Assembly (NCBI GenBank): GCA_041653535.1
Contig: JBAZFH010000002.1
Span: forward strand, 173,011-237,010
Source: Patescibacteria group bacterium
Lineage (GTDB): Bacteria > Patescibacteriota > Patescibacteriia > JACRDY01
DNA: 64,000 nt
Direction of reading: 5' to 3'
Within the stretch, counting starts at the first letter, position 1, and every line of letters begins with the position of its first letter. Below are positions 20,299 through 50,377 of the stretch, one piece after another. Below the pieces are notes generated by a model. It searched no databases, was not told where the DNA came from, and saw nothing but the letters and a program-made list of their open reading frames with translations. Both the position numbers and the translations under genes were made by a program.

Positions 20299-20318
20299 TC
20301 TAATAATGATAAAAAAGC

Positions 20319-21104: not shown

Positions 21105-21136
21105 TAGTTGAATGAATTAAGAATAATAAATAAAAT

Positions 21137-23421: not shown

Positions 23422-23445
23422 CAGGCAGTTCAATTTATTTATTTT

Positions 23446-28205: not shown

Positions 28206-28274
28206 TTGATATCTTGATTTTGACGGTAAATAAGCATATTCTTAATATACGATAAATAAAGAGCTTCTTTTTTT

Positions 28275-29312
28275 ATGCAAAATTATTTGATTATCGGCGG
28301 TGCTGGTTTTATTGGCTCTAACATTGCTAGCTATCTGTGTTCTGTCGGTAAAAGCGTTACAATTCTAGACAATTTTTCTCGCCGAGGAACAGATCTCAAT
28401 CTCAAATGGCTGCAAACAAGTTATCCGGACATTAAGGTGGTAAAAGCTGATGTTCGTCATGATTTAGACAAACTTAACGAAGCCGTAGCGCAAAACGAGG
28501 TTGTCTATCATTTAGCGGCGCAGGTAGCAGTTACCACTTCGGTCAAAAATCCCAGAGAAGATTTTGAGATTAATGCGCTCGGCACGTTTAACGTTTTGGA
28601 GGCCGCCAGGCTTTCCGCTCGAAAACCGATTGTGATTTTTTCTTCCACCAATAAAGTTTATGGCGGCATGGAAGATGTTAAAATAGTTCATGACGAAAAA
28701 CGTTACAGTTACGCCGATTATCCACTTGGTATTCCCGAAGATCGCTTGCTTGATTTTCATTCTCCTTACGGTTGTTCCAAGGGTACCGGCGACCAATATG
28801 TCCGCGACTATGCCAGAATCTACGATATTCCCACTGTAGTTTTCCGCCAATCTTGTATTTATGGCACGCATCAGTTCGGTTTGGAAGACCAAGGCTGGGT
28901 AGCTTGGTTTACTATTGCCTCGCTGCTTAGTAAACCGTTGAAAATTTACGGCGACGGCAAGCAGGTTCGCGATGTGCTTTTTGTTGATGATTTAGTCAGA
29001 GCTTTTGTTAGTGCTACGGACAATATAGAAAAAACCAAAGGAAAAATTTTCAATATCGGCGGCGGGGCTAGCTATACCATGTCGCTGCTTGAGCTAGTTA
29101 GTTATCTGGAAGAATTTCTTGGTCAAAAAATCACTTATTCTTTTGCCGATTGGCGACCGGGAGATCAGCCGGTCTATATTAGCGACGTGCGCAAAGCCAA
29201 AGAAGTATTTGGCTGGCAACCGCAGATTGATGTGAAGCAAGGCGTGTCTAAGCTCGTCTTTTGGGTAAAAGAAAATCGGGCGATGATCGAAGATGTTTTC
29301 AAAGACATGTAA
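28275..29312 (+). CDS. NAD-dependent epimerase/dehydratase (extended SDR).
   Basis: LIIGGAGFIGSN Rossmann motif, STNKVYG and YGCSK (YxxxK) catalytic motif. Confidence 0.8.
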   Translation: MQNYLIIGGAGFIGSNIASYLCSVGKSVTILDNFSRRGTDLNLKWLQTSYPDIKVVKADVRHDLDKLNEAVAQNEVVYHLAAQVAVTTSVKNPREDFEINALGTFNVLEAARLSARKPIVIFSSTNKVYGGMEDVKIVHDEKRYSYADYPLGIPEDRLLDFHSPYGCSKGTGDQYVRDYARIYDIPTVVFRQSCIYGTHQFGLEDQGWVAWFTIASLLSKPLKIYGDGKQVRDVLFVDDLVRAFVSATDNIEKTKGKIFNIGGGASYTMSLLELVSYLEEFLGQKITYSFADWRPGDQPVYISDVRKAKEVFGWQPQIDVKQGVSKLVFWVKENRAMIEDVFKDM

Positions 29313-29327
29313 AATAATTATAAAATT

Positions 29328-30431
29328 ATGAAAATTTTAGTTACCGGCGGCGCCGGATTTATTGGTTCTCATCTAGTCGACCGTCTTATCGAGCAGGGTC
29401 ACGAGGTCAGAATTTTTGATAATCTGACTGAACAAGTGCATCAAGGTAAAATTCCTGAATACCTGAACCCCAAAGCCGAGTTTATCAAAGGTGATGTTTT
29501 AGACCGCGCGGCGCTTGCCGCAGCGCTTGCAGGAATAGATGTGGTCTTTCACTTTGCTTCGGCAGTCGGAGTAGGACAGTCGCAATATCAGATTTATCAT
29601 TATGTGAATACCAATGTCGGCGGTACGGCTAACTTGCTAGATATTATTGTTAACGACAAACTGCCGATAAGAAAAGTGATTGTCGCTGCTTCTATGAGTA
29701 GCTACGGCGAAGGTCTTTATAATTGCGACAAATGCGGCGCGGTTAGACCAGAGCTACGTTCGCAAGTAGTAGATGGCGATTGGGAACCGCGTTGTCCGCT
29801 TTGTGGCGGAACAGTCAAACCGATACCGACCAATGAAAAAGCGGTGCAATATTGCAATTCTATTTACGCTTTGACTAAAAAAGCTCAAGAAGATATGGTA
29901 ACAAACATCGGTCGAACTTATAATATTCCGACTGTTGCCCTTCGTTTTTTTAATGTCTATGGTCCCAGACAGAGCCTGTCTAATCCTTACACCGGCGTAG
30001 CGGCAATTTTTATGAGTCGGATCAAAAACGGTAACTCGCCGGTGATCTATGAAGACGGGCTTCAGACACGCGATTTTGTTTCTGTTTACGATATTGCTGA
30101 TGCTAATATTGCCGCGATGAATAGTGCTAGCTCCGACTACGAAGTTTTCAATGTTGGTAGCGGCACGGCTTTACCAATTAAAGAAGTGGCGGAAATTTTG
30201 GCCAAACTCTATGGTAATGATGTTAAACCAGAAATAACTAGCCAGTTTCGCAAAGGCGATGTGCGGCATTGTTTTGCCGACATGACAAAGGCTAAAGAAA
30301 AATTGGGCTGGCAGCCAAAAATTTCTTTCGAGCAAGGTATGGCTGATCTGATCGCTTGGAGTCGTGATGCCGAGGCGGTAGACAGTCTGGATAAAGCCAT
30401 TGCCGAGATGAAGGAAAAGGGTTTAGTTTAG
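29328..30431 (+). CDS. NAD-dependent epimerase/dehydratase (extended SDR) with an internal 4-Cys zinc-ribbon insertion.
   Basis: ILVTGGAGFIGSH, YALTK (YxxxK), and an inserted YNCDKCGAVRPELRSQVVDGDWEPRCPLCGG at about aa 133-165. Confidence 0.8.
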   Translation: MKILVTGGAGFIGSHLVDRLIEQGHEVRIFDNLTEQVHQGKIPEYLNPKAEFIKGDVLDRAALAAALAGIDVVFHFASAVGVGQSQYQIYHYVNTNVGGTANLLDIIVNDKLPIRKVIVAASMSSYGEGLYNCDKCGAVRPELRSQVVDGDWEPRCPLCGGTVKPIPTNEKAVQYCNSIYALTKKAQEDMVTNIGRTYNIPTVALRFFNVYGPRQSLSNPYTGVAAIFMSRIKNGNSPVIYEDGLQTRDFVSVYDIADANIAAMNSASSDYEVFNVGSGTALPIKEVAEILAKLYGNDVKPEITSQFRKGDVRHCFADMTKAKEKLGWQPKISFEQGMADLIAWSRDAEAVDSLDKAIAEMKEKGLV

Positions 30432-30441
30432 AAGAAAAAAA

Positions 30442-32766
30442 ATGAAAATATTATTTCTCAATCATAACCAGGAAAAGGTTGGTACTTATTACCGTTGTTT
30501 TTTCTTGGGAAAATATTTGTCGCAAATCGGTTACCAAATCACCATGATTTGCGCCAGCGGAAAAAGTTTTGATCTGCGGATTCGTCGGCAGAAAATTAAC
30601 GACAACTTTACTATTATTACTCTACCGCGGATCAAGTACAGCCGCTATCTTACTGGTCAGCTTTTACTTCGTTTGCCGCTGACTATTTTTTACATTTTTT
30701 CTTTATCTTACGACATTTGTCACGCCTTTACCGTCGCTCAACCGCAAATCGGTATTCCGGCTTGGGTAGCCAAAAAAATAAGAGGCAAAAAATTGATTGT
30801 CGATTGGGATGACCTGTGGGGCGGTGGTTTTGCCGACTATCATGCCTGGCCGATCAAACCGGTTTTGTCTTGGTTTGAGAATTCTGTCCCGCGACTCGGC
30901 GATCGGATAACTTATGTTTCCGAATATCTGGGTGAAAGGATAAATAAACTCGGGTTGATGGATCGCGCGGCCAAAATACCTAATGGTTCTGACCCAGAAA
31001 AAATACTGTCGCTAGATAAAGCTGTCGTTCGTCAAAAGTTGGGACTAGCTTTGGACAAAAAATATTTAGTAGCTATGGGTAATACTTATTTGGAGAGTTT
31101 TGCCCTAATGCTGACGGCTTTTGCCGAAGTGGTTAAGAAAAACAGTAATGCCTTTTTGATTCTACTTGGCAATGCCGAAATCTCTCCAGCGCTGCAAGAC
31201 CTTTTTGCCAAAATAAAAGACAATGTTATTATTGGCGGTTTTGTGCCGATTGAAAAAGCTGCGGCGTACCTCAGCGCCGCTGACGTTTTAGTGCTGCCCA
31301 TGGACAGCAATCCTATTGAGTTTGCTCGTTTTCCGATTCGTCTGGGCGACTATCTTTGCGCCGGTAGGCCGGTTGTTTCCAATGCTGTCGGCGAAGTAAA
31401 ATATTATTTGGAAAAATATAATTGTGGTTTGATCTCGGCGCCGCAAGATACCGACGCAATGGCTAATAATGTTTTGACTTTACTATCCGATCAGGAACAG
31501 TCGCAGAAGCTGGGTCTTGCCGCTCGGCAAGTGGCAGAAAATATTTTGCCGTGGAAAAAAGCCGCGTTTGAGTTATCTACGGTTTATAATGATTTAGCGA
31601 GCGAAGAGGTCAGAAACAAAAAAATATCAGGGATTATTATTTTGTCGCCGTTTTACGAACCAAACACCGGAGGAGTGGAAACTCATTTACGCGATTTATC
31701 TAAATATTTAGTTAAACAAGACTATCGCGTGGCGGTATTAACTTATCAGCCGCTTACCACCAAAGCCAAGGCCCCGATCTGGGAGCAACCAGGAGAAGGT
31801 TTCATTATCCACCGTATTCCTTGGGTTGGTCATAATCTTTTTCATAAATTAGAAGAGCATCCGTTTTTTCAATTTTTATATCTGACACCGATCCTTTTTG
31901 TTTATACGTTTTTCTTTTTATTATTTAATCGTCGCAAATACGAAGTAATTCACGCTCACGGGCTTACTTCGGCGCTGATCAGTAACTTCATGCAGAAAAT
32001 TTTTCATATCCGTTTTGTGGTTAGCATGCACGCAATCTACGGTTTTCGTCCCGACTGGTGGCTAGCCAAAGTTTGCCGGTTTATTTTAGCTCCAGCCAAA
32101 AAAATATTTTGTCTTGCTGAAGCATCGCGTGACGATATTCGACAGTTGGACCTGGAAGAAAAAAGATTGGATCTTTATATCCAGTGGGTGGATCAGGACA
32201 ATTTTAAGCCGCGAGATAAAAAAGAATGTCGAGCGACGTTAAAATTGACCGATAAATTTACTGTGCTTTTTGTTGGACGCCTAATCGAGAAAAAGGGCGC
32301 CGGTGTTTTGCTTGAGGTAGCAAAAAAACTGCCAAACATTAATTTTATTTTTATCGGCGATGGGCCAATGTATGATGATTTGAAAAAAGCGGAGGGAATA
32401 TCCGGTAATGTAATTGCTGCCGGCAAAAAAGAACAAGAAGAAGTGGCCGAATATTTTGGCGCTTGCAATGTAGTAGTGGTGCCGTCGCAGTATCCCGAAG
32501 GTTTTGCTCGAGTGGTTTTGGAAACATTGTCTAGCGGTCGGCCGATTATTGCGGCTAACGCCGGTTGTCTGCCGGAAATGATTACTGAAAAAGTAGGGGT
32601 GCTGCTAGAACCAACAGCGGAAAACATTACCAATCAGCTAGAGGATTTTTACAATAACCCAGACAAACTTTTGGCGCTGGAAGCAAATTGCCGAGAATAC
32701 GCGCTTGAACATTTCGGTGAGGCGCACGCCAAACCAATCGAAGAGTCTTACTACATAACCGAATAA
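30442..32766 (+). CDS. Fused tandem GT4 glycosyltransferase (two GT-B modules).
   Basis: 774 aa. The first module ends ...FARFPIRLGDYLCAGRPVVSNAVGE. The second starts KKISGIIILSPFY...GGVETH and ends ...EGFARVVLETLSSGRPIIAANAGCLPEM, the E-x7-E-type GT4 motif. Confidence 0.75.
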   Translation: MKILFLNHNQEKVGTYYRCFFLGKYLSQIGYQITMICASGKSFDLRIRRQKINDNFTIITLPRIKYSRYLTGQLLLRLPLTIFYIFSLSYDICHAFTVAQPQIGIPAWVAKKIRGKKLIVDWDDLWGGGFADYHAWPIKPVLSWFENSVPRLGDRITYVSEYLGERINKLGLMDRAAKIPNGSDPEKILSLDKAVVRQKLGLALDKKYLVAMGNTYLESFALMLTAFAEVVKKNSNAFLILLGNAEISPALQDLFAKIKDNVIIGGFVPIEKAAAYLSAADVLVLPMDSNPIEFARFPIRLGDYLCAGRPVVSNAVGEVKYYLEKYNCGLISAPQDTDAMANNVLTLLSDQEQSQKLGLAARQVAENILPWKKAAFELSTVYNDLASEEVRNKKISGIIILSPFYEPNTGGVETHLRDLSKYLVKQDYRVAVLTYQPLTTKAKAPIWEQPGEGFIIHRIPWVGHNLFHKLEEHPFFQFLYLTPILFVYTFFFLLFNRRKYEVIHAHGLTSALISNFMQKIFHIRFVVSMHAIYGFRPDWWLAKVCRFILAPAKKIFCLAEASRDDIRQLDLEEKRLDLYIQWVDQDNFKPRDKKECRATLKLTDKFTVLFVGRLIEKKGAGVLLEVAKKLPNINFIFIGDGPMYDDLKKAEGISGNVIAAGKKEQEEVAEYFGACNVVVVPSQYPEGFARVVLETLSSGRPIIAANAGCLPEMITEKVGVLLEPTAENITNQLEDFYNNPDKLLALEANCREYALEHFGEAHAKPIEESYYITE

Positions 32767-32768: not shown

Positions 32769-33797
32769 TTGGCTATGTCTCTTGCTACCAAGGCGTACAA
32801 TTTTATTATTTACAATCGTCTGGTCAAACGTCTTGCCGGATGGTTTTTGCGTCAGCGGTTTTTTAATCAAAATTATTTTTATCAACAGAAATACCAGCGG
32901 TTACTAAAAAATAAAATGGGAAAATATCAGCGAGTGCCTTTTCGGGTGATGATTGAGAACACCAATGCATGCAATTCCAACTGTGTTTTTTGCCCGCATC
33001 CGGCAATGAAAAGAAAAATCGGCAATATGTCGATGGAGCTTTTTCAAAAAATTGTCGATCAGTGTGTTAGCCTAGGCATTGATTATGTTACCATCTATGG
33101 CTTTGGCGAGCCGCTGCTCGACCCTGAGTTTGTCGCCAAAGTAAAATACGCCAAAAGTCGCGGTATCAAAAGAGTGACTACTAACACCAACGGCGCGCTT
33201 TTAACCGAAGAAAGAAGTAGAGCGCTTGTCGAAGCCGGCATTGATGAGATCTATATCAGCTTTGACGCAGCAACAGCTGAAACCTTTCGCAAGATTCGTC
33301 CGGCTCTTAACTTCGATAAAATAGAAAAAAATATTTTCGACTTGGCCAGGATCAGAAAAGAAATGGGATCAAAAAAACCAGAAATAGTTTTGAGTTTTGT
33401 CGAGACTGGCGACAACAAACAAGAAGTAAAAAAATATATCAAAAAATGGCAAAAAACAGTTGATCATATTTCTATTTCTTTCATCCATAACTGGACAGGT
33501 GACCTTTTTGATAAGCTAAAAATAAAACAGCGAGATTGGCTACGTGATCCGTGTCGTTTGATTTGGACCGACATGGTAATCAGCTGGGACGGCACAGTGC
33601 CGCTTTGTTGTAACGACTACGAAAATAAAATAATTTTAGGTGATATTAACAAGCAGACGGTTGCCGAGGTTTGGGGCGGAGAAAAGCTGCGGCAATTTCG
33701 TTATTATCATCAAAAAGGAGAATTTAAGAGTATTAACATTTGTGCTGATTGTGTGTATAATTGTCATCATAAGTCGCCATGGTGGGTCGGCAAATAA
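32769..33797 (+). CDS. Radical SAM enzyme with a C-terminal SPASM/twitch Cys-rich domain.
   Basis: The CNSNCVFCP (C-x3-C-x2-C) motif. C-terminal Cys run CCNDYE...CADCVYNC. Confidence 0.8.
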   Translation: MAMSLATKAYNFIIYNRLVKRLAGWFLRQRFFNQNYFYQQKYQRLLKNKMGKYQRVPFRVMIENTNACNSNCVFCPHPAMKRKIGNMSMELFQKIVDQCVSLGIDYVTIYGFGEPLLDPEFVAKVKYAKSRGIKRVTTNTNGALLTEERSRALVEAGIDEIYISFDAATAETFRKIRPALNFDKIEKNIFDLARIRKEMGSKKPEIVLSFVETGDNKQEVKKYIKKWQKTVDHISISFIHNWTGDLFDKLKIKQRDWLRDPCRLIWTDMVISWDGTVPLCCNDYENKIILGDINKQTVAEVWGGEKLRQFRYYHQKGEFKSINICADCVYNCHHKSPWWVGK

Positions 33798-33806
33798 ACC
33801 TTTAAT

Positions 33807-34424
33807 ATGTCAAAAAGGCAAGATCGCGCTACTATTACCAGAATAAAAAAAATATCCCGGTTGATACCAGGCGGGAAAATTTTAGATATTGGTTGCCGGG
33901 AAAATTTATTACAAGATTTTTTACCAGCAGGAACGGAATACTTCGGTTTAGAAGTGAGTAGTACCAACAGCAGCCAAAACGGGGAAAAAAATAAATTTTT
34001 GCCGCAAGGAATTTGTGATGACAAGTCGAGAGAGGTTTTTGGCGATTTGAAATTTGACGCAGTAGTTTTGGCGGAAACCCTGGAACACTTATTAGAGCCT
34101 TTTCAAGCTCTGGATAATATAAAATTTTTATTGCGCGACGGCGGTCAGCTTATTGGTAGTGTGCCGAACGCCGTTGCCTGGCGTTATTTCTTTTTTTTGG
34201 AATTATTAGGTGACGGAATGAACGATTTTGTTGCGCCGAAATGGGATGGTCATGAGCACTTTTTTGCTTTTAATAAATATATTTTAAGAACGCTTTTAAT
34301 GCGAGCAGGGTTTAAAAAAATAACGATCAAAGAGTGGGGAAGCTGGATTCCTGGTACAGGAATTTTTTTACCTTTCAATTTTCGCGGTTCGCATTTGATT
34401 TTCACGGCGGAAAAACAATCTTGA
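33807..34424 (+). CDS. Class I SAM-dependent methyltransferase.
   Basis: ILDIGCRENLL motif I region and a Rossmann layout, 205 aa. Confidence 0.6.
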   Translation: MSKRQDRATITRIKKISRLIPGGKILDIGCRENLLQDFLPAGTEYFGLEVSSTNSSQNGEKNKFLPQGICDDKSREVFGDLKFDAVVLAETLEHLLEPFQALDNIKFLLRDGGQLIGSVPNAVAWRYFFFLELLGDGMNDFVAPKWDGHEHFFAFNKYILRTLLMRAGFKKITIKEWGSWIPGTGIFLPFNFRGSHLIFTAEKQS

Positions 34425-34452
34425 AGTTTTAATCAACTTAATCGTTAAAAGT

Positions 34453-35871
34453 ATGGCACAAGTGGTTTTAATTCAGGCTTCTATGGGATTTTATGGCGAT
34501 GAAGGAATAGTCGCCGACCAGACTTCTAATCCGCCGATGGGTCTTTTATATATTGCTGCTTATTTAGAAAAATACGGAGTTTCGGTCAGACTAATTGATC
34601 CTTTTCCGGAACAGCTCAATTTAGCTGATATCCTCAAAGAGATTGAATTAGAAAAACCCTTGGTTATCGGTATTTCTGCTATGACTCCGGGTATTCCTAC
34701 TGCTTACAAAATGGCGCAAGCCATTCGCGGGCGGTTTGGTCCGCGACCTTTTATAGGCGTCGGAGGTATTCATACGAGCGTTGATCCGGGTTTTATTGAT
34801 CGTTATCCAATTTTTGATTTTGAAGTCGTTGGGGAAGGGGAGGTAACTTTTTACGAAGTCCTTCAAACTGTTTTGGCTGGTAAAATACCGCAGAAAAAAT
34901 ATTTTGGTAAAATTATAGAAAATCTTGATGATTTGCCTTTTCCCGCCAGACATCTTTTGCGAGGTAGATATTTTTGTCCGCACGATGAAACAGAGGCAGA
35001 TGATCCGGAAGTAACTATTATTGCTTCACGAGGCTGTCCTTTTCACTGCATTTTTTGTTCCAAGCCGGGATTTAGGGATCGTTATCGCTATCGTTCGGCA
35101 AAAAATATTGTAGACGAAATGGAAAGAGATTATAAACTATGCAACGGCAAGTTTAATTTTGTTGACGATACCATCGGAGCCAATCAGCAGAGAGCGATAG
35201 AGTTTTGCGAAGAAATAATGTCACGAAAACTAAAGGTTCAGTTTGCCGTCCAGATGAGAGCAACTGACGCCAGCGATGTTTTTTTTAAAAAATTAGCGGC
35301 ATCAGGTTGTCGCGAAATATTTTTTGGTGTTGAATCCGGCAGTAATCGAGTGAGAAATGAAATAATCGAAAAAAGAGTCCCAGAGGAAAAATTATTTGAG
35401 GCGGTTAAACTTTGCCGTCGTTATGGCATGCAGTCAAATTTTTACCTGATGCTCGGATTTCCTACGGAAACAAAAAAAGATTTAGAAGATACGGTCAATA
35501 TCGGCGTCAGGACCAAAGTTGATTTTATCGGTTTGCATGTTACTCAGATCATTCCCGGGTCCCGTTTGTATGATTTAGCCATCAAAGAAGGTAAGATGTC
35601 TAACGATCTGTTGGATCAATATATTCGTGGCGAGTTAGGTAATAATTTTTTTGAAGTTTTTCCAAAATATATTCCCGATGGTTTGACGATTAAAGATTTA
35701 GAGGCTGCCAGAACACTTGCTTATCGTAAATTTTTTATCAATCCTGGTTGGTGGTATCGTCGCATCAGGTCTTATTTCAAACACCCCGATCGGTTGGTTA
35801 AAGATTGGAAACAATTCAGATTAGGAATTTATGTTTTAATTCACGGGCATACTAAATCGGCAGCATCTTAG
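34453..35871 (+). CDS. B12-binding-domain radical SAM enzyme (class B).
   Basis: N-terminal B12-like domain (GLLYIAAYLEKYGVSVRLIDP...IGISAMT), then the ASRGCPFHCIFCSKP C-x3-C-x2-C motif. Confidence 0.8.
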   Translation: MAQVVLIQASMGFYGDEGIVADQTSNPPMGLLYIAAYLEKYGVSVRLIDPFPEQLNLADILKEIELEKPLVIGISAMTPGIPTAYKMAQAIRGRFGPRPFIGVGGIHTSVDPGFIDRYPIFDFEVVGEGEVTFYEVLQTVLAGKIPQKKYFGKIIENLDDLPFPARHLLRGRYFCPHDETEADDPEVTIIASRGCPFHCIFCSKPGFRDRYRYRSAKNIVDEMERDYKLCNGKFNFVDDTIGANQQRAIEFCEEIMSRKLKVQFAVQMRATDASDVFFKKLAASGCREIFFGVESGSNRVRNEIIEKRVPEEKLFEAVKLCRRYGMQSNFYLMLGFPTETKKDLEDTVNIGVRTKVDFIGLHVTQIIPGSRLYDLAIKEGKMSNDLLDQYIRGELGNNFFEVFPKYIPDGLTIKDLEAARTLAYRKFFINPGWWYRRIRSYFKHPDRLVKDWKQFRLGIYVLIHGHTKSAAS

Positions 35872-35900: not shown

Positions 35901-38342
35901 ATGAAAAGACTTTTCCAGTCCAAACATTTTTGGCCGGTTTTGATTGTTGTTTTGGCCGGTTTGGCGGTTTTTACTTGGTTTAAGGGCGATTTGATTTTTA
36001 GTTATGGCGACGTGAGGTTCAATTTTTCTCCTCTGGAAACTTTTAAAAACTATTTTTATACTTGGAGCAGAGAAGATACCGGCTCGCCGGTAATACAGGC
36101 GATGCCGTTTATTTTTTACCAAATTTGTTTGGCTATTTGGGCAAAGATCGGTCTGCCATTATTTTTATTCCAACGGTTGGCTTATTATTTTTTGTTTGTT
36201 TCCGGCGGTTTGGGGGTCTATGTTTTGTTAACTACTGTTTTTCGCGGCGAACGACGTTATTTAATAGGGCTGTTAGCAGCTCTTTTTTATATGTTTAATA
36301 TTTATGCTCTAGTTATGGTTTGGGGCATGGGTATCCAGATTATTTATTTTTATCCTTTTTTGCCATGGTTGCTAACCCTTTTTATTAGGGGGATAGAGGG
36401 TGGGAAGGTGATAATCTATTTGCTTCTTTTTTCTCTGCTCAATTTTTTAGTCGCTATTGCTTACAGTAACGCTTCTTATGTGGTTTTAGTCTGGTTGCCG
36501 ATTTTTGCTTATTTTATTTTTTATTTGTTTGTTAATCGTCGTGACCGGCAAAAGGTCAGGGTCGCTTGTATTTTTACAGCTTTATTGGTGGTCGTTTGGT
36601 TATTGCTAAACCTTTATTGGTTAGTACCTTTTGTCTATGATATTTCTTCTTTTTCTTCAGCCGCTTTGAAAAATGCAGCTTATTCTCACAGTTTGGGCGA
36701 GACGGTTCGGGGTGCGAGCGTGACGGCACATTTGTCTAATGCCGTCAGACTTTTTGGCTATCAGCCTTTTGATGATAATTTTTCTTATGCGCCAGGAGAT
36801 TATTTTCATTCGTATTCGCCGGTCTATAACGGCAAAATATTTTTTACTATACTTAGCTATACTATTCCGCTGCTAGCTTTGGGAAGTTTATTATTTTTAT
36901 TTAAAGAAGAGAAAAAAGAAAAAAGGCGTTTAGTGTTTTTTTTGTTGTTTTCAGTTGCCGCTTTATTTTTGTATAAGGGATCGCAACCTCCGTTTGGAGG
37001 CTTATATGTTTGGGCAGTAAACAAGTTTTCTTTGTTTGGTGCTTTTCGTCATCCGATGGGGAAATTCGGCACGTTTCTTGTCTTGGGTTATGCTGTCTTG
37101 ATCGGCTACACTCTCAGCGAAATTTATTTGTGGTTAAAGAAGAAAATAAATGCAACTAATGCCAAAACAGTTTTGGTTGTTATTTGTGTTTTATTGTTTG
37201 TTATTTATCAGTATCCATTTTGGCAAGGAGATGTTTTTCATGAAAAAGGACTAATTTCTCGGTCAGCTTTAGTGGGCGTTCCTGATTATTATCGAGAGGC
37301 GGCTGGCTGGCTGGCGACGCAGCCGGAAAATTTTAGAATTTATCCTGTGCCTGAGACGGGTTTTTTTGGTACCGCGTTGCGTTGGGATAACGGTTACGAT
37401 GGAGCTGATCCCGCCTATCCTCTTTTATTACGATCGGTAACGCATTTGATGAATGAAAACGGAATCGAAATAAAAATTTGGGACGAAATTTCAGCCGAGA
37501 CGGTTAACGAGCAAAACGCGGCATTATTGATGGGACTGCTAAATACTAAATATGCTATGGTGAGAAAAGACGTGGCGAAAGAATATTTTAATATGCCGAA
37601 AGTCACTTTTGATCTGGCCGTGAAGCATTTGGAAAAAGAAGAAATAGCCGGCTTAAAATTCGATCGGAATATTGGTCAGTTGGATTTTTATTTGTTGGAG
37701 GATAAATATTTTTATCCTCGTATCTACGTTCCGACATTTTGCGCTCTAAGCTCCGATTGGTTGCAAGCCTTGAAATTAGTCAACACTAGACTGGAAAAAG
37801 ACAAGATAGCGATTTTTACTTCTACGGATCCGGAGAAAACCTTTGGTCAGATCCGTAAAGATTCAGCCTTTGATTTTAGTGCTACGGCGGTTTTGGACGG
37901 CAAAAAAGAATCATTGGAAAATCTGACGTTGAAAACGGCACCAGACATAAAATTTGAAAGAATAAACCCGACAAAATATCGAGTCGAAGTTAGTAATGCC
38001 CAAGGTAACTTTCTTTTGGTACTGTCAGATAGTTTTAATAATGAATGGAAAGCCTATTTAATACCTGATACAAAGCGGGTTAATAGTTTTTTTGGTCAGA
38101 TTGCCGAAACGTGGAGTTTGCAGCCGATTGCCGATGATAAGCACTTTTGGGTTAATAAATACGCTAATGCTTGGTATGTGGAGCGACCGGAACAAAAAGA
38201 GGACTTTACCATTATTTTAGAATTTTGGCCGCAGCGCCTAGTTTATTGGAGCTTGACCGCAAGTGTCGTTGCCTGGTTGGTTTTTATTATAGTATTGATT
38301 ATTGTTAGCCGAAAAAAAAGAAAGTCAATTAAAGATATTTAG
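35901..38342 (+). CDS. Large polytopic membrane protein (putative GT-C-fold glycosyltransferase, YfhO/AftD-like), with a C-terminal EFWPQR-TM anchor.
   Basis: 813 aa. About 12 N-terminal TM helices, a large soluble domain and a terminal TM. Paralogous to the 54459-57677 protein: INPTKY..., NNEWKAYL / NFNTFWRVYV, YANAWYVERP / YANGWWIKRP, and ILEFWPQRLVYW / IIEFWPQRIYYL. Confidence 0.55.
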   Translation: MKRLFQSKHFWPVLIVVLAGLAVFTWFKGDLIFSYGDVRFNFSPLETFKNYFYTWSREDTGSPVIQAMPFIFYQICLAIWAKIGLPLFLFQRLAYYFLFVSGGLGVYVLLTTVFRGERRYLIGLLAALFYMFNIYALVMVWGMGIQIIYFYPFLPWLLTLFIRGIEGGKVIIYLLLFSLLNFLVAIAYSNASYVVLVWLPIFAYFIFYLFVNRRDRQKVRVACIFTALLVVVWLLLNLYWLVPFVYDISSFSSAALKNAAYSHSLGETVRGASVTAHLSNAVRLFGYQPFDDNFSYAPGDYFHSYSPVYNGKIFFTILSYTIPLLALGSLLFLFKEEKKEKRRLVFFLLFSVAALFLYKGSQPPFGGLYVWAVNKFSLFGAFRHPMGKFGTFLVLGYAVLIGYTLSEIYLWLKKKINATNAKTVLVVICVLLFVIYQYPFWQGDVFHEKGLISRSALVGVPDYYREAAGWLATQPENFRIYPVPETGFFGTALRWDNGYDGADPAYPLLLRSVTHLMNENGIEIKIWDEISAETVNEQNAALLMGLLNTKYAMVRKDVAKEYFNMPKVTFDLAVKHLEKEEIAGLKFDRNIGQLDFYLLEDKYFYPRIYVPTFCALSSDWLQALKLVNTRLEKDKIAIFTSTDPEKTFGQIRKDSAFDFSATAVLDGKKESLENLTLKTAPDIKFERINPTKYRVEVSNAQGNFLLVLSDSFNNEWKAYLIPDTKRVNSFFGQIAETWSLQPIADDKHFWVNKYANAWYVERPEQKEDFTIILEFWPQRLVYWSLTASVVAWLVFIIVLIIVSRKKRKSIKDI

Positions 38343-38409
38343 AAAATTGAGAAAAATTTGGCTATCTTTACAAGAAAAGTTAATGGGAGTAGACTGTAAA
38401 AACTAAAAT

Positions 38410-39567
38410 ATGTCCAAGAAAATCTACATAATAGCCAATACCATGATAGAACCGGGCATGAGCGGCGGTAATAGAATTTTTATTGAATTAGCCAAAAATT
38501 GGGTAAAAACCGGTCATCAGGTTACGGTTTTTACCTCTCCTGTTGGTAAGCAGATTTGTCAGGCTAATGATTTGATGGGCGCTCGGTATGTCACTTGGCC
38601 GGCACAAAATTTTCGCTTTTTAGGGATTTTCGGTCAATACTTTGTCGGTGTTTTTTGGGGTTTATGGAATGCGCTAAAAAGTTGGCGCGGATTTGAAAAT
38701 GTTATTGTTTGGTCAACGTCTGATTTTTGGCCGGATGCTTTATCGGGATTACTTTTTAAAATCATTAACCCCAAATGTTTCTGGATTGCTTCGGTATTTA
38801 TGTTTGCTCCGAATCCTTTCAAACAGACTAAATTTTACGTCAAAGCTTTTTTACATTTTATTACCCAGAAACCAATTTATTTTCTCAGTAAAAAAATAGC
38901 GCAGATGATTTTTGTTACCAATGACGGTGACAGAGATTTTGTTGTAGGCGATGGAGTGCCGGCCGAGCGGGTAGTATCGATCCGCGGCGGCGTTAATCTT
39001 GATTATATTCAAAGTATCAGAGCCGAAGGAAAAAAATATCTTGGTATTTTTATGGGACGGGTGCATCGCCACAAAGGAATTTTAGAGCTGCTTGATGTCT
39101 GGAGAAAGGTTTGTGATGTTATGCCGCAGGCCAAGCTAGCAGTGGTAGGAGAAGGTCCACAGGAAAAAGAAGCCAAAGAAAAAGCGGAAAAATTGGGATT
39201 AAAAAATAATGTCGTATTTTTTGGTTTTGTGGATGGTGACTACAAATATATTTTGATGAAAGAAAGTCAGATGTTTTTACATTCCTCGGTCTGGGATAGC
39301 GGCGGCATGAGTGCGGCCGAAGGCATGGCTTGCGGTTTGCCGGTAGTTGGTTATGATTTGCCGGCTTTCAAAACATATTATCCTAAAGGTATGCTCAAAG
39401 CGCCGCTTGGAGATCGGGATAAATATGCCGAATTGATTATCAGTCTAGCAAACGATGTTAGTCTTTATCAAAAGATCAGCGCTAAAGCTCTAGACTGGGC
39501 AAATGGTTGGGACTGGGCGGTAAATGCTAGTCGTATTATGCAAGCGATTGATGGAATTTTAAAATAA
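38410..39567 (+). CDS. GT4 glycosyltransferase.
   Basis: 385 aa. Two GT-B halves. C-terminal EGMACGLPVVGYDLPAF motif. Confidence 0.8.
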   Translation: MSKKIYIIANTMIEPGMSGGNRIFIELAKNWVKTGHQVTVFTSPVGKQICQANDLMGARYVTWPAQNFRFLGIFGQYFVGVFWGLWNALKSWRGFENVIVWSTSDFWPDALSGLLFKIINPKCFWIASVFMFAPNPFKQTKFYVKAFLHFITQKPIYFLSKKIAQMIFVTNDGDRDFVVGDGVPAERVVSIRGGVNLDYIQSIRAEGKKYLGIFMGRVHRHKGILELLDVWRKVCDVMPQAKLAVVGEGPQEKEAKEKAEKLGLKNNVVFFGFVDGDYKYILMKESQMFLHSSVWDSGGMSAAEGMACGLPVVGYDLPAFKTYYPKGMLKAPLGDRDKYAELIISLANDVSLYQKISAKALDWANGWDWAVNASRIMQAIDGILK

Positions 39568-39574: not shown

Positions 39575-40240
39575 ATGTTTAATGAACAAAAAGGTTCTAA
39601 GGCTTATCCTGAATATGATCCGACTGACGAGGACTCGGAGATTTCTCGGCTTTATAAGTTAATCAAAGAACAACCGTTGGAGCAGTCAGATGCTGCTGTG
39701 TGGTTGGAGGGCGAAGCAGACGACCGCAATGTAAAGTGTATAAGGATCGTTCAGAGTGATTATGCACCCAAGCTAGTTTTATCGGGTGGCGTTGATAAGG
39801 CGCCAACGGATATTCCATCTCAAAAAATGGCCGAGGTGTTCGTTCAATCTGGAATTAGTCGTGATCAAATCATTATAGACCCTACGTCTTTGAATACGAA
39901 GGAGCAGGCAGTAAATGTTTTGCGTTTAGTTAAAGATAATGATTGGCACAAAATAATCTTAGTAGCTAATCCATATCACCAGATTAGAGTTTTTTTGACT
40001 TTTTTGGCGGAGCTTAAAAAACAAGGTATGGACAAGATGGTTAAAATCATCAATGCCCCAGCGGATTTGAATTGGTTTAGGACCACAGCTCGAGGTCGCG
40101 ATGAAGTTGATTTGTTTAACGAAGAAGAAATCCCTCGGTTGATAAAATATGGTCAGGATGGTGTTGATGGCAAAAAAGCAGACGTCGCTAAGTTATCAGA
40201 GGGCTTAGATTATATAGAATATTGGAATAATCAATTATAA
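39575..40240 (+). CDS. DUF218 (YdcF/ElyC/SanA-like) domain protein.
   Basis: LVLSGGVDKAP...QKMAEVFVQSGISRDQIIIDPTSLNTKEQA...ILVANPYHQIRVF fits the DUF218 pattern. Confidence 0.5.
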   Translation: MFNEQKGSKAYPEYDPTDEDSEISRLYKLIKEQPLEQSDAAVWLEGEADDRNVKCIRIVQSDYAPKLVLSGGVDKAPTDIPSQKMAEVFVQSGISRDQIIIDPTSLNTKEQAVNVLRLVKDNDWHKIILVANPYHQIRVFLTFLAELKKQGMDKMVKIINAPADLNWFRTTARGRDEVDLFNEEEIPRLIKYGQDGVDGKKADVAKLSEGLDYIEYWNNQL

Positions 40241-40249: not shown

Positions 40250-41266
40250 ATGTTCAGAGGCAAAAGAATACTAGTTACCGGGGGGACGGGATCGTTTGGC
40301 CATCAAATAGTTAATGATTTGATTCCTTACGAACCGGCCGAGATACGGGTTTTTTCCCGTGATGAAAAAAAGCAGCACGACATGCGTTTGGAATATCCGG
40401 ATGTTAAGTTTTTAACTTTTGTTATTGGTGATGTTCGCGATGCTGCGTCAGTACGATCAGCAATGAGAGGAATTGATATAGTTTTCAACGCCGCGGCATT
40501 AAAACAAGTTCCTTCCTGCGAATATCATGTTATCCAGGCAGTCAAAACCAACATTCTTGGTCCGCACAACGTTATCGAAGCGGCTTTGCAAGAAGACGTT
40601 GAGAAGGTGATAACTATTTCAACAGACAAAGCGTGCGAACCGATCAACGCCATGGGTATCAGTAAGGCAATGCAAGAGCGTTTGTTTGTTTCGGCCAACC
40701 TTGAAAAAGGTAACAAAAGAACAGTCTTTGCCGGCGTTCGTTATGGCAACGTGCTTGGTTCTCGCGGGTCAGTAGTGCCGCTATTTAAACAGCTTGCCGA
40801 AGAAGGCAAGGATTTACCGATTACCGACAGACTAATGACGCGTTTTATTATTACTTTACCTCAATCAATAGAGCTAGTTTTTTATGCAGCCGAGCATGCT
40901 GTCGGTGGTGAAATGTTTGTCAAAAAAATGCCAGCGCACACCATCACTGATTTGGCAGAAATTATCTTAGCCCGACACGGCAAAAATGAAAATCAAAAGG
41001 TAGTAGAAAAAGGAATCCGTCCCGGAGAAAAGATTCATGAGAGTCTGGTTTCTCCTTCCGAGTCACTGCACTGTATTGATCAGGGCGACTACTTTGTTAT
41101 TTTGCCGCAGATATCACTACCCGATGTAGAAGCTAAATACGGTTCGTTAATAAACAATCTCCCTGGTCCGACGCAGCAAAAATCTTTCCGCTATTCTTCG
41201 GAAAATACTCAACGTCTAAGCAAAGAAGATCTTGGGGAGCTACTAAAAAATGAAGGCTGGATCTAA
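40250..41266 (+). CDS. UDP-GlcNAc inverting 4,6-dehydratase family (PseB/FlaA1/CapE/WbjB-like).
   Basis: ILVTGGTGSFGHQIV, TDKACEPINAMGISK, VRYGNVLGSRGSVVPLFK, GIRPGEKIHE and a C-terminal YSSEN. Near-collinear with the PseB/CapE family. Confidence 0.85.
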   Translation: MFRGKRILVTGGTGSFGHQIVNDLIPYEPAEIRVFSRDEKKQHDMRLEYPDVKFLTFVIGDVRDAASVRSAMRGIDIVFNAAALKQVPSCEYHVIQAVKTNILGPHNVIEAALQEDVEKVITISTDKACEPINAMGISKAMQERLFVSANLEKGNKRTVFAGVRYGNVLGSRGSVVPLFKQLAEEGKDLPITDRLMTRFIITLPQSIELVFYAAEHAVGGEMFVKKMPAHTITDLAEIILARHGKNENQKVVEKGIRPGEKIHESLVSPSESLHCIDQGDYFVILPQISLPDVEAKYGSLINNLPGPTQQKSFRYSSENTQRLSKEDLGELLKNEGWI

Positions 41267-48573: not shown

Positions 48574-48590
48574 AAAATAATTGATATTCT

Positions 48591-50376: not shown

Positions 50377-50377
50377 T

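What the first reader, a model, noticed from the sequence alone, without database searches (positions are those of the whole stretch)
32769..35871. Recurrent radical SAM and methyltransferase gene pairs
Within the array three modules recur:
- SPASM radical SAM (32769), MT (33807), B12 radical SAM (34453);
- Zn-ribbon MT (44215), B12 radical SAM (45130);
- MT (48591), SPASM radical SAM (49243), the last two overlapping by 11 nt.

Repeated adjacency of a radical SAM and a conventional MT suggests stepwise modification of the same residue. One possibility is radical C-methylation or epimerisation followed by O- or N-methylation. Another is that the SPASM enzymes oxidise or dehydrate a sugar or peptide substrate before methylation.
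Basis: partly seen in the sequence, partly recalled or inferred. Interest (0 to 1): 0.5.

Follow-up and report, generated by a model that had tools for sequence, protein, structure and literature searches.

The report
Radical-enzyme cassettes in a glycan locus
A Patescibacteria genome fragment carries a ~37-kb cell-surface sugar-polymer gene cluster in which five radical SAM enzymes and seven methyltransferases are interleaved with glycosyltransferases; two of these groupings recur in related genomes, pointing to uncharacterised radical chemistry on surface sugars that resembles known antibiotic sugar-tailoring enzymes.

Summary
All seven listed genes have the stated domains, the 11-nt overlap exists, and the 44215 methyltransferase (MT) has a Zn ribbon.

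They lie in a one-strand, 31-gene glycan-assembly array (22462-59539) of a Patescibacteria MAG. The array holds a Wzx flippase, GT2, GT4 and AftD-like GT-C transferases, and sugar-nucleotide enzymes.

The three "modules" are not duplicates. Paralogues share only 24-31% identity, while each has its own 45-72% orthologue elsewhere.

- **Conserved blocks.** GT4-twitch rSAM-MT-(B12 rSAM)-GT-C and B12 rSAM-GT4-MT-MT-twitch rSAM-GT4 recur in related contigs.
- **Not conserved.** The MT(44215)-B12 rSAM pair does not recur.
- **Steadiest partner.** This is a glycosyltransferase, not an MT. GT4 lies upstream of 32769 orthologues in 10 of 13 loci; an MT lies downstream in 7 of 13. One relative encodes a B12-rSAM::GT4 fusion.
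- **Cluster type.** Both "SPASM" enzymes are twitch-type, with one four-Cys auxiliary cluster. The 32769 family is most similar to BtrN.
- **Peptide substrates.** No precursor-peptide gene fits in the array.

Best reading: cytoplasmic radical tailoring (oxidation or epimerisation, C-methylation or deoxygenation) plus methylation of sugars during lipid-linked glycan assembly. The chemistry is inferred, not shown. I rate it a new variant of a known kind, of moderate interest.

The parts
22462..24423 (+). Two GT2 glycosyltransferases (22462-23421, 23446-24423), each with C-terminal TM helices. They look like polyprenyl-phosphate sugar synthases.
   Evidence: Pfam Glycos_transf_2. Hydropathy scan. 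The GT2b-B12a adjacency is conserved in L012, L014 and L171.
24428..25885 (+). B12a: a B12-like/radical SAM protein with a non-canonical CX4CX2C cluster motif. It is part of the widely conserved core.
   Evidence: Pfam Radical_SAM 1.7e-14; B12-binding is weak at 5e-4. Best NCBIfam hit is HpnJ, 169 bits against a cutoff of 578. The motif CWWG[KRS]CxFC is conserved in 7 orthologues at 49-56% identity.
25896..27191 (+). Wzx-type flippase.
   Evidence: Pfam Polysacc_synt and Polysacc_synt_3. About 11 TM segments.
27201..30431 (+). GT2c (27201-28205) and two SDR sugar-nucleotide epimerase/dehydratases (28275-29312, 29328-30431).
   Evidence: Pfam.
30442..32766 (+). Tandem double GT4 glycosyltransferase (774 aa). 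It is the conserved upstream partner of the 32769 rSAM.
   Evidence: Pfam finds two GT4 units. A GT4 lies directly upstream of 32769 orthologues in 10 of 13 loci.
32769..33797 (+). SPASMa: a BtrN-like twitch-type radical SAM enzyme. It has CX3CX2C plus one four-Cys auxiliary cluster (C262, C280, C325, C328).
33807..34424 (+). MTa: a small soluble class I SAM methyltransferase (205 aa).
   Evidence: Pfam. Orthologues at 48-59% identity lie directly after SPASMa in L001, L002 and L168.
34453..35871 (+). B12b: a B12-binding-domain radical SAM enzyme (class-B architecture).
   Evidence: Pfam. AF2 pLDDT 91.7. Fold matches are TsrM, AprD4, MgmA, OxsB and TokK. Profile matches are AprD4 1.7e-36 and MgmA 1.9e-23. 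Orthologues at 51-71% identity lie next to or near a GT-C gene in L001, L002, L003 and L005.
35901..39567 (+). AftD-like GT-C membrane glycosyltransferase (35901-38342) and GT4b (38410-39567).
   Evidence: Pfam GT-C_AftD 3.8e-11 and GT4. About 11 TM segments.
39575..40240 (+). DUF218 (ElyC-like) protein inside the array.
   Evidence: Pfam DUF218 7.9e-14. NCBIfam gives only a weak ElyC hit, 20.6 bits against a cutoff of 205.
40250..42525 (+). Sugar-nucleotide enzymes: a Polysacc_synt_2 dehydratase (FnlA/CapE-like), an RmlD-like reductase and a cupin.
   Evidence: Pfam.
42532..45129 (+). Zn-ribbon MT (42532-43416), polysaccharide deacetylase (43406-44218) and Zn-ribbon MT (44215-45129). The genes overlap by 11 and 4 nt, and both MTs have a C-terminal TM helix.
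   Evidence: Pfam. The two MTs are 28% identical over their full length. TM segments. No orthologue of 44215 was found in related loci.
45130..46617 (+). B12c: a B12-binding-domain radical SAM enzyme.
   Evidence: Pfam. Best NCBIfam hit is HpnJ, 262 bits against 578. Best PDB hit is AprD4, 6.9e-29, over the radical SAM core. Orthologues at 52-66% identity occur in L001, L003, L168, L169 and L170.
46623..47765 (+). GT4c. Its orthologue is fused to a B12-rSAM in L169.
   Evidence: Pfam. L169:943-3570 is one continuous 875-aa ORF. Its C-terminal half is 52% identical to GT4c over the full length.
47779..49253 (+). MTx (47779-48573) and MTc (48591-49253), both class I methyltransferases.
   Evidence: Pfam. 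Both are conserved in L168, L169 and L170 (MTc 65-72% identical). They are fused into one 504-aa protein in L170.
49243..50376 (+). SPASMb: a twitch-type radical SAM enzyme. It has CX3CX2C plus C310, C328, C365 and C368, and overlaps MTc by 11 nt.
   Evidence: Pfam. Invariant Cys in alignment A4. The C-terminal domain best matches the BtrN twitch domain, 1.7e-12. Orthologues at 42-52% identity.
50369..52127 (+). GT4d (50369-51574), the conserved downstream partner of SPASMb, and a short MT-like protein (51576-52127).
   Evidence: Pfam. SPASMb-GT4d is adjacent in L018, L168, L169 and L170.
52129..54454 (+). Protein of unknown family (52129-53346, 405 aa) and a PF01663 phosphodiesterase-like protein (53336-54454). 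Their roles in the array are unassigned.
   Evidence: No Pfam or NCBIfam hit for 52129. Pfam Phosphodiest 1.3e-10 for 53336.
54459..59539 (+). Two further AftD-like GT-C membrane glycosyltransferases, which close the array.
   Evidence: Pfam GT-C_AftD 8e-26, and a weak 3e-5 for the second. TM scan.
19762..21868 (+). Adenine phosphoribosyltransferase, an MT, and 5'-methylthioadenosine phosphorylase, directly upstream. They may salvage the adenosyl by-products of SAM enzymes.
   Evidence: NCBIfam above cutoff: Apt 223 against 170; MTAP 308.5 against 274.85. The link to the array is inference only.

Best explanation
The region is part of a Wzx-type, lipid-carrier-dependent cell-envelope glycan assembly locus of a Patescibacteria bacterium.

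**Proposed mechanism**
- Five soluble (cytoplasmic) radical SAM enzymes and six or seven class I methyltransferases are tailoring enzymes for sugars.
- Their genes sit next to the glycosyltransferase step they serve, so the gene order roughly follows the assembly order.
- After a GT4 adds a residue to the lipid-linked intermediate (or just before, on the nucleotide sugar), the tailoring enzymes act on it.

**Roles of individual enzymes**
- The BtrN-like twitch rSAM (32769; likewise 49243) abstracts a sugar C-H. It either oxidises the carbinol to a ketone, with the auxiliary cluster as electron sink, or inverts it.
- The B12-domain rSAMs (24428, 34453, 45130) carry out C-H functionalisation of unactivated sugar carbons. 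This could be C-methylation as in GenK or Fom3, or AprD4-like deoxygenation or HpnJ-like rearrangement.
- The conventional MTs cap hydroxyl or amino groups.
- The finished unit is flipped by Wzx and elaborated outside the cell by AftD-like GT-C enzymes.

**Why rSAM and MT genes are neighbours**
- The recurrent proximity arises mainly because both classes are recruited to the same GT-centred cassettes.
- Two such cassettes (30442-38342 and 45130-51574) are inherited as units.

**Shown versus inferred**
- Shown: domain identities, cofactor-binding motifs, paralogy levels, glycan context, cassette conservation, and a natural rSAM::GT4 fusion in a relative.
- Inferred: the substrates, the stage (nucleotide sugar or lipid-linked), and every specific reaction.
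For: **Glycan context**
- Every one of the 31 genes from 22462 to 59539 is on the + strand, with gaps of at most 69 nt.
- The genes encode a Wzx flippase, 3 GT2, 5 GT4, 3 GT-C (AftD-like), SDR, FnlA-like, RmlD-like and cupin sugar-nucleotide enzymes, and a deacetylase.

**The rSAMs look competent and cytoplasmic**
- CX3CX2C is present in four of them, and a conserved CX4CX2C in 24428.
- None has a TM segment, whereas two MTs and the GT2s are membrane-anchored.

**Nearest characterised relatives act on carbohydrates**
- The 32769 family profile hits BtrN at 2.9e-27, including the twitch domain. The next best hits are about 1e-9.
- BtrN is a two-electron aminocyclitol dehydrogenase (PMC9012708).
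- The 34453 profile and 45130 both hit AprD4 best, at 1.7e-36 and 6.9e-29. AprD4 is the paromamine diol dehydratase.
- 45130 and 24428 score best against HpnJ.

**Cassette conservation**
- GT4-SPASMa-MTa-B12b-GT-C occurs in L002, in L001 with an extra MT-B12-MT before the GT-C, and in L003 with a non-orthologous MT. L168 has the same block without B12b.
- B12c-GT4c-MT-MT-SPASMb-GT4d occurs in L168, L169 and L170. L169 and L170 carry an extra B12 rSAM between B12c and GT4c, and one extra gene directly upstream of SPASMb (a SPASMa-like twitch rSAM in L169, a third MT in L170).
- The core GT2b-B12a-GT2c-GT4-SPASMa recurs in bins assigned to Saccharibacteria, Omnitrophota and Bathyarchaeota. A Desulfobacteraceae bin (L014) has the same core without the GT4.

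**GT coupling**
- A GT4 lies directly upstream of SPASMa orthologues in 10 of 13 loci, against 13% GT4 genes in those loci (p about 2e-7, not corrected for phylogeny).
- L169:943-3570 is a single 875-aa B12-rSAM::GT4c protein. The same two genes are separate but adjacent in L170.

**Wider sampling**
- I examined 115 immediate neighbours of 25-33%-identical B12-rSAMs drawn from metagenomes. The commonest classes were other rSAMs (14), GT2 (11) and class I MTs (about 9).
Against: - No enzyme reaches any curated family cutoff, so no reaction can be assigned by homology.
- The radical SAM core of SPASMb is closest by profile to the sactisynthases SkfB and CteB.
- Methylase and non-methylase B12-type rSAMs cannot be told apart from sequence or fold.
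- Cobalamin binding is unproven, and the B12 domain of 24428 is below the Pfam cutoff.
- Collinearity of gene order with assembly order is an assumption.
- The conservation counts come from few, phylogenetically related, mostly metagenomic contigs. Some bin taxonomies may be wrong.
Confidence: 0.55

Rival explanations
1. Each rSAM and its adjacent MT form an obligate two-step unit acting on the same sugar residue. One example would be BtrN-like oxidation or epimerisation followed by O- or C-methylation. Another would be B12-dependent C-methylation followed by O-methylation.
For: - An MT lies directly downstream of SPASMa orthologues in 7 of 13 loci, against 14% MT genes in those loci (p about 9e-4, uncorrected).
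- MTa orthologues (48-59% identical) are always directly after SPASMa.
- MTc and SPASMb overlap by 11 nt, and the MT-MT-SPASMb block is conserved.
- In L014 the slot after SPASMa holds a sulfotransferase, another hydroxyl-capping enzyme.
- Non-orthologous Zn-ribbon-MT/B12-rSAM pairs recur in L001 and in a Methanoperedens locus.
Against: - The MT after SPASMa is non-orthologous in L003, L007, L171 and L173. It is absent in L008, L009, L011, L012 and L172.
- SPASMb orthologues follow a B12 rSAM, not an MT, in L001 and L018.
- B12b orthologues occur without a neighbouring MT in L005.
- MT 44215 has no orthologue and is overlapped by a deacetylase-MT pair.
- Class B rSAM methylases regenerate methylcobalamin from SAM themselves and need no partner MT (established knowledge of TsrM, TokK and GenK).
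- In-window enrichment is only p = 0.05-0.09.
Confidence: 0.25
2. The B12-domain proteins are not methyltransferases. They would be AprD4-like diol dehydratases (deoxygenation) or HpnJ/OxsB-like rearrangement enzymes acting on sugars, possibly without using cobalamin. All methyl groups in the glycan would then come from the class I MTs.
For: - AprD4 is the best solved-structure match for both the 34453 family profile (1.7e-36) and 45130 (6.9e-29), with TMt 0.71.
- HpnJ is the best NCBIfam hit for 45130 (262 bits) and 24428 (169 bits).
- The abundance of conventional MTs in the array would cover the need for methylation.
Against: - The AprD4 matches cover only the radical SAM core.
- The AprD4 family model scores 69-122 bits against a cutoff of 500.
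- 34453 and 45130 have clear B12-binding Rossmann domains above the Pfam cutoff, with invariant S75 and G104-G105-x-H107 in the family.
- MgmA, TsrM and TokK, which are true methylases, are comparably close in fold.
Confidence: 0.3
3. The adjacency has no functional meaning beyond shared membership of one large tailoring-rich operon. MT and rSAM genes are simply both abundant (6 and 5 of 31 genes), and they drift together or apart by gene shuffling.
For: - Permutation within the window gives p = 0.09 for the number of adjacencies.
- The order and orientation of the pairs differ between the three groupings.
- The MT partner is often exchanged or missing in relatives.
- Only about 9 of 115 neighbours of related B12-rSAMs are MTs.
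Against: - Orthologous SPASMa-MTa and MTx-MTc-SPASMb-GT4d blocks persist at 45-72% protein identity across contigs whose other content differs.
- Genes overlap, which suggests translational coupling.
- 8% MT among neighbours is still well above a typical genome-wide MT frequency. That frequency is my own estimate of about 1-2% and was not measured here.
Confidence: 0.2
4. The SPASM-type rSAMs mature a ribosomal peptide (RiPP) or a protein, as most SPASM enzymes do. The glycan genes would be bystanders.
For: - Pfam SPASM domain hits.
- The SPASMb core is closest by profile to the sactisynthases SkfB and CteB.
Against: - No intergenic gap exceeds 69 nt, so there is no room for a precursor gene.
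- Only four conserved auxiliary Cys are present (twitch type), not the seven of peptide-modifying SPASM enzymes.
- I saw no RiPP-associated gene (protease, transporter or recognition-element protein) among the Pfam hits of the annotated loci.
- The conserved neighbours are GT4, MT and GT-C.
Confidence: 0.03

Closest known systems
BtrN (butirosin 2-deoxy-scyllo-inosamine dehydrogenase; twitch radical SAM)
   Same: - CX3CX2C radical SAM core plus a C-terminal twitch domain with a single four-Cys auxiliary cluster. My recollection is that the Cys spacing (CX17C ... CX2C) matches BtrN.
- It is the best sequence-profile match by 17 orders of magnitude (2.9e-27), and the twitch domain itself is aligned.
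- It acts on a carbohydrate-type carbinol.
   Different: - Only 18-24% identical.
- 32769 has an extra helical N-terminal extension of about 55 residues.
- It sits in a surface-glycan locus next to a GT4, not in an aminoglycoside pathway.
- Substrate and reaction are unknown.
AprD4 (apramycin pathway radical SAM 1,2-diol dehydratase with a B12-like domain)
   Same: - Two-domain architecture: an N-terminal Rossmann B12-like domain plus a radical SAM core.
- Best solved-structure match for the 34453 family profile and for 45130.
- Its substrate is a sugar.
   Different: - Similarity is confined to the radical SAM core.
- The curated AprD4 family model is missed by a wide margin (69-122 bits against 500).
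- AprD4 does not use cobalamin (my recollection, not checked here), whereas the proteins here keep a clear B12-binding domain signature.
Class B (cobalamin-dependent) radical SAM C-methyltransferases acting on sugars or phosphonates (GenK, GenD1, Fom3), and the solved members TsrM, TokK and MgmA/QCMT
   Same: - Same domain architecture and fold.
- MgmA is the best single-sequence PDB hit for 34453.
- This enzyme class is known to methylate unactivated sp3 carbons of carbohydrates and antibiotics (PMC12931638).
   Different: - No orthology. All curated family models are missed.
- The known members work in antibiotic or cofactor pathways, not in cell-envelope polysaccharide assembly.
- The 2026 review of the class does not contain the words polysaccharide or glycan.
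HpnJ (hopanoid-associated B12-type radical SAM, proposed to remodel a lipid-linked glucosamine)
   Same: - Best NCBIfam hit for 45130 and 24428.
- It offers a precedent, from general knowledge, for a B12-type rSAM acting on a lipid-anchored sugar.
   Different: - Scores of 262 and 169 bits against a cutoff of 577.6.
- There are no hopanoid genes here.
TylC3/TcaB9-type NDP-sugar 3-C-methyltransferases
   Same: The 44215 and 42532 MTs share the N-terminal Zn-ribbon plus class I MT layout. 44215 aligns weakly to this family (3e-6 to 1e-5).
   Different: - They lack the C-terminal Methyltransf_14 domain and carry a TM helix instead.
- A true member of the family is found in the related Omnitrophota locus L012 but not in the window.
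Wzx/GT-C (AftD-like) lipid-linked envelope glycan pathways
   Same: Flippase, cytoplasmic GT2 and GT4 enzymes, and extracytoplasmic GT-C enzymes.
   Different: The density of radical SAM enzymes is high (5 of 31 genes). I did not find this described for such pathways in the searched literature.

Membership tests
Radical SAM superfamily | Pfam PF04055 match above cutoff, and a CX3CX2C motif that ligates the SAM-binding [4Fe-4S] cluster | tested here: met
   - All five proteins score 55-85 bits against a cutoff of 29.5.
- CX3CX2C is present in 32769, 34453, 45130 and 49243.
- 24428 has a conserved CX4CX2C variant.
SPASM subfamily (two auxiliary clusters) | Seven-Cys motif binding two auxiliary [4Fe-4S] clusters | tested here: not met
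   - PF13186 is matched above cutoff.
- Only four C-terminal Cys are invariant in each family: C262/C280/C325/C328 and C310/C328/C365/C368.
Twitch subfamily (truncated SPASM, one auxiliary cluster) | Shortened C-terminal domain with one fully Cys-ligated auxiliary cluster (definition from PMC9012708) | tested here: met
   - Four invariant Cys in each family.
- The twitch domains of both families align best to the BtrN twitch domain.
- Cluster binding itself cannot be tested here.
BtrN orthologue (DOIA dehydrogenase) | Orthology-level similarity, and an aminoglycoside (2-deoxystreptamine) pathway context | tested here: not met
   - 18-24% identity.
- The neighbours are glycan GTs, not butirosin-type genes.
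- It works like BtrN at most. It is not a member.
Class B cobalamin-dependent radical SAM enzymes | N-terminal B12-binding Rossmann domain fused to the radical SAM core | tested here: met
   - PF02310 scores 77.5 bits (34453) and 56.3 bits (45130) against a cutoff of 32.1.
- 24428 scores only 20.3 bits, so it is inconclusive for that protein.
- The fold matches TsrM, OxsB, TokK and MgmA.
Class B cobalamin-dependent radical SAM enzymes | Actual cobalamin binding and methyl transfer (SAH plus 5'-dAdo stoichiometry) | not testable with these tools
   Needs reconstituted protein.
HpnJ (TIGR03471), BchE (TIGR02026), AprD4 (NF033070), PhpK and other curated B12-rSAM families | Score above the curated NCBIfam cutoff | tested here: not met
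   The best scores are 262 of 577.6 (HpnJ, 45130), 124 of 481 (BchE, 34453) and 122 of 500 (AprD4, 45130).
RiPP maturase system | A precursor peptide gene and RiPP accessory genes next to the rSAM | tested here: not met
   - Intergenic gaps are at most 69 nt.
- I saw no RiPP-associated families among the Pfam hits of the window or of the annotated related loci.
   - B12 paralogues are 26-29% identical, the twitch rSAMs 24%, and the MTs 20-31%.
- Each gene has a 45-72% orthologue in other contigs.
- Gene orders differ.
Wzx-dependent lipid-linked glycan locus | A flippase, several GTs and sugar-nucleotide enzymes in one operon-like array | tested here: met
   -.
- No Wzy-type polymerase or initiating phosphoglycosyltransferase was identified among the Pfam hits, so the exact pathway type stays open.

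The most novel reading that the evidence does not exclude
Radical SAM enzymes are dedicated, sometimes physically fused, partners of particular glycosyltransferases in a widespread but undescribed type of envelope-glycan pathway of anaerobes. The bins carrying it are assigned to Patescibacteria, Omnitrophota, Desulfobacterota, Bathyarchaeota and Methanoperedens.

- A BtrN-like twitch enzyme and up to three B12-type enzymes would remodel sugars on the growing lipid-linked chain by C-H abstraction.
- The products would be keto, epimerised, deoxy or C-methyl-branched residues that ordinary nucleotide-sugar pathways do not make.
- For a genome-reduced Patescibacterium this would also mean that its surface glycan depends on scavenged cobalamin.
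Probability: 0.3. Interest if true: 0.7.

Novelty: new variant of a known kind. Interest (0 to 1): 0.5.

Why it matters
- Radical SAM tailoring of sugars is established for aminoglycoside and nucleoside antibiotics. My literature searches found no description of it for cell-envelope polysaccharides.
- Here a small-genome episymbiont-type bacterium devotes 5 of 31 cluster genes to such enzymes.
- The same GT-rSAM cassettes appear in bins assigned to several phyla.
- The 32769 family alone has about 1,800 clusters at 50% identity with E <= 1e-30.
- If the inferred chemistry is right, these loci make sugars that standard glycan prediction misses, such as C-methyl-branched, keto or epimerised residues.
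- They also give experimentally tractable entry points: soluble enzymes, defined GT partners and a natural fusion.
- This could assign functions to a large block of unannotated B12- and twitch-type radical SAM enzymes, and could open up the surface chemistry of Patescibacteria.

Tried and rejected
1. **Module duplication.** Rejected by all-against-all BLASTP, which gave 24-31% identity.
2. **Assignment to a curated family.** NCBIfam scans of all rSAMs and MTs gave nothing above cutoff.
3. **RiPP or peptide substrate.** Rejected, because there is no space for a precursor gene, the auxiliary cluster is twitch-type, and the neighbours are glycan enzymes.
4. **Phosphonate (Fom3-like) tailoring.** The relative L170 has a Fom1-like cytidylyltransferase-PEP mutase, a decarboxylase and an Fe-ADH next to the SPASMb-GT4d block. 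No PEP mutase appears among the scanned window ORFs (three ORFs of at least 150 aa outside the array were not scanned), so this is not proposed for the window.
5. **Metagenome scan for 34453 orthologues.** The back-translated patterns were too generic (RGCPFxCxFC) and returned only 25-33% paralogues. I reused them as a background sample of neighbours.
6. **Distant homologues from the genome scan.** The more distant 32769 homologues (30-41% identity) sit in other contexts, for example beside proteins of about 1,150 or 2,300 aa in Desulfobacterota. I left them out of the tally.
7. **Fold searches.** They could not separate a carbohydrate from a peptide substrate for 32769, nor a methylase from a non-methylase for 34453.
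8. **Literature searches.** Searches for radical SAM enzymes in polysaccharide, O-antigen or Patescibacteria glycan loci found no description. A search for DUF6580 found nothing.
9. **AlphaFold-database fold library.** It was not available.

Full report
**1. What is there**

ORF listing shows an unbroken run of + strand genes from about 18970 to 63749.

| Gene | Domains |
|---|---|
| 32769-33797 | Radical_SAM + SPASM |
| 33807-34424 | class I methyltransferase (MT) |
| 34453-35871 | B12-binding + Radical_SAM |
| 44215-45129 | MT with an N-terminal CxxC...CxxC Zn ribbon |
| 45130-46617 | B12-binding + Radical_SAM |
| 48591-49253 | MT |
| 49243-50376 | Radical_SAM + SPASM |

- The 48591 and 49243 genes overlap by 11 nt.
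- The third B12-type enzyme is 24428-25885.

**2. Context**

The 31 genes from 22462 to 59539 form a glycan-assembly array.
- It holds a Wzx flippase, three GT2, five GT4 (one a tandem double GT4) and three AftD-like GT-C membrane transferases.
- It also holds SDR, FnlA-like, RmlD-like and cupin sugar-nucleotide enzymes, and a polysaccharide deacetylase.
- Gaps between genes run from -100 to +69 nt, so there is no room for an unannotated precursor-peptide gene.
- The source is a 323-kb contig of a Patescibacteria-group MAG. P0001, P0121 and P0241 are 100% matches.
- The five rSAMs have no hydrophobic segments. MTs 42532 and 44215 and the GT2s are membrane-anchored.

**3. Are the modules duplicates?**

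No.
- All-against-all BLASTP gives 26-29% identity among the three B12-type proteins and 24% between the two SPASM-type proteins.
- The MTs share 20-31%.
- Each gene has its own orthologue at 45-72% identity on other contigs.
- Gene order also differs between the three groupings.
- None of the proteins reaches a curated NCBIfam cutoff.

**4. Are the groupings conserved as units?**

I fetched contigs carrying homologues with their precomputed Pfam annotation. I mapped window proteins onto them by tblastn.

*Grouping 1 (32769, 33807, 34453)*
- L002 shows GT4 - twitch rSAM - MTa orthologue (56%) - B12b orthologue (71%) - GT-C.
- L001 has the same genes (MTa 59%, B12b 71%), with an extra MT-B12-MT set before the GT-C.
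- L003 has the same block with a different MT.
- L168 has rSAM - MTa (48%) - GT-C without B12b.

*Grouping 3 (48591, 49243)*
- It belongs to a larger conserved block: B12c - GT4c - MTx/MTc - rSAM 49243 - GT4d.
- This block is present in L168, L169 and L170. MTc orthologues are 65-72% identical.
- L169 and L170 carry an extra B12 rSAM between B12c and GT4c.
- Each also has one extra gene directly upstream of the 49243 orthologue: a SPASMa-like twitch rSAM in L169 and a third MT in L170.

*Grouping 2 (44215, 45130)*
- It is not conserved. MT 44215 has no orthologue in any relative.
- On its other side it overlaps a deacetylase and a paralogous Zn-ribbon MT (42532-45129). This suggests de-N-acetylation followed by methylation, which is inference.
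- B12c orthologues are usually flanked by GT4 genes.

**5. What is the steadier partner?**

I tallied thirteen loci other than the window that carry an orthologue of 32769 at 45% identity or more.

| Position relative to the 32769 orthologue | Gene class | Loci |
|---|---|---|
| Upstream | GT4 | 10 of 13 |
| Downstream | MT | 7 of 13 |
| Downstream | B12 rSAM, GT-C, GT4, GDP-mannose dehydratase, sulfotransferase, PF01663 protein | 1 each |

- Against the gene-class frequencies in those loci (13% GT4, 14% MT), the binomial tails are about 2e-7 and 9e-4.
- Those values are not corrected for shared ancestry.
- A wider core, GT2 - B12a - GT2 - GT4 - twitch rSAM, recurs in bins labelled Saccharibacteria, Omnitrophota and Bathyarchaeota.
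- A Desulfobacteraceae bin (L014) has the same core without the GT4.
- B12b orthologues lie next to or near a GT-C gene in every locus that has one, including a Methanoperedens contig.
- L169:943-3570 encodes one 875-aa protein that joins a B12-type rSAM to the GT4c orthologue. The two parts are separate adjacent genes in L170.
- Within the window alone, rSAM-MT adjacency is only marginally enriched (p = 0.05-0.09), about as much as rSAM-GT adjacency.

**6. What kind of enzymes are they?**

*Twitch-type rSAMs*
- Family alignments show only four invariant C-terminal Cys in each SPASM-type family.
- That is the twitch arrangement, a truncated SPASM domain with one auxiliary cluster (PMC9012708).
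- A profile of the 32769 family hits BtrN at 2.9e-27, against about 1e-9 for the next structures. The twitch domain itself aligns.
- The twitch domain of 49243 also matches BtrN best, but its core matches SkfB and CteB.

*B12-type rSAMs*
- The 34453 model (pLDDT 91.7) has the TsrM/AprD4/MgmA/OxsB/TokK fold.
- By profile the closest structure is AprD4, then MgmA.
- 45130 is closest to AprD4 and, among NCBIfam models, to HpnJ.
- 24428 has a conserved CX4CX2C motif.

*Methyltransferases*
- They are generic class I enzymes.

**7. Mechanism**

The best-supported reading treats these as cytoplasmic sugar-tailoring enzymes placed beside the glycosyl-transfer steps they serve.
- The twitch rSAMs would abstract a carbinol C-H and oxidise or invert it.
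- The B12-type rSAMs would functionalise unactivated sugar carbons, by C-methylation or by AprD4/HpnJ-like chemistry.
- The MTs would cap OH or NH2 groups.
- Flipping and GT-C elaboration would follow.
- Only the gene-level facts are shown. Substrates, stage and reactions are inferred.

**8. Novelty**

- Ten full-text searches found no description of radical SAM enzymes in envelope-polysaccharide loci of these organisms.
- A 2026 review of B12-dependent rSAMs does not contain the words polysaccharide or glycan.
- The 32769 family is large: 1,795 clusters at 50% identity with E <= 1e-30.
- I therefore class this as a new variant of a known kind, namely radical SAM carbohydrate tailoring moved into GT-coupled envelope-glycan cassettes.
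- Interest is moderate. The function is unproven and the enzyme classes themselves are familiar.

Noticed in passing
window 15010-18474 (+): The 1154-aa leucyl-tRNA synthetase ORF carries two extra in-frame domains. One is an IS200-like Y1 transposase domain (residues 263-368, 2.4e-15), lying before the editing domain. The other is a serine-hydrolase / alpha-beta-hydrolase domain (residues 537-723, 8.8e-19), lying after it.
   Followed up: no
window 19762-22445 (+): Four genes sit directly upstream of the rSAM-rich array: adenine phosphoribosyltransferase, an MT, MTA phosphorylase (both salvage enzymes score above NCBIfam cutoffs), and a 4-TM DUF6580 membrane protein. They could salvage 5'-deoxyadenosine and MTA from the SAM enzymes, and the membrane protein could be a cofactor transporter. 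The link is speculative.
   Followed up: partly
window 24428-25885 (+): The B12a radical SAM protein has a CX4CX2C motif (CWWGRCTFC) instead of CX3CX2C. The spacing is conserved in seven orthologues at 49-56% identity, from bins assigned to several phyla.
   Followed up: partly
L169:943-3570: A natural fusion of a B12-binding radical SAM enzyme with the GT4c orthologue forms one 875-aa continuous ORF. The same two genes are separate but adjacent in L170.
   Followed up: yes
L170:7793-9307 and L170:12390-17093: The orthologues of MTs 47779 and 48591 are fused into one 504-aa protein. Just downstream of the rSAM-GT4 pair lie a cytidylyltransferase-PEP mutase fusion (Fom1-like), a TPP decarboxylase and an Fe-alcohol dehydrogenase. 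This suggests a phosphonate decoration of the related glycan.
   Followed up: partly
L014:9210-9860: In a Desulfobacteraceae bin, the gene after the 32769 orthologue is a sulfotransferase rather than a methyltransferase.
   Followed up: partly
window 42532-45129 (+): Two paralogous Zn-ribbon, C-terminally membrane-anchored MTs flank a polysaccharide deacetylase, with overlaps of 11 and 4 nt. This looks like a de-N-acetylation and methylation unit. It is specific to this genome among the relatives examined.
   Followed up: partly
L003:8378-9874: A B12-type radical SAM gene between the MT and the B12b orthologue is broken into three short ORFs of 208, 123 and 177 aa. It is probably a pseudogene or an assembly frameshift.
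   Followed up: no
L045, L048-L051, L053, L055, L058, L065, L070, L073, L077; and L046, L054, L060, L061, L063, L074, L076, L078, L082, L083: More distant homologues of 32769 (30-35% identity), mostly in Desulfobacterota bins, sit in quite different conserved neighbourhoods. One set lies directly after a protein of about 1,150 aa. Another lies in a block about three genes downstream of a protein of 1,770-2,550 aa. These are probably separate functional subfamilies.
   Followed up: no
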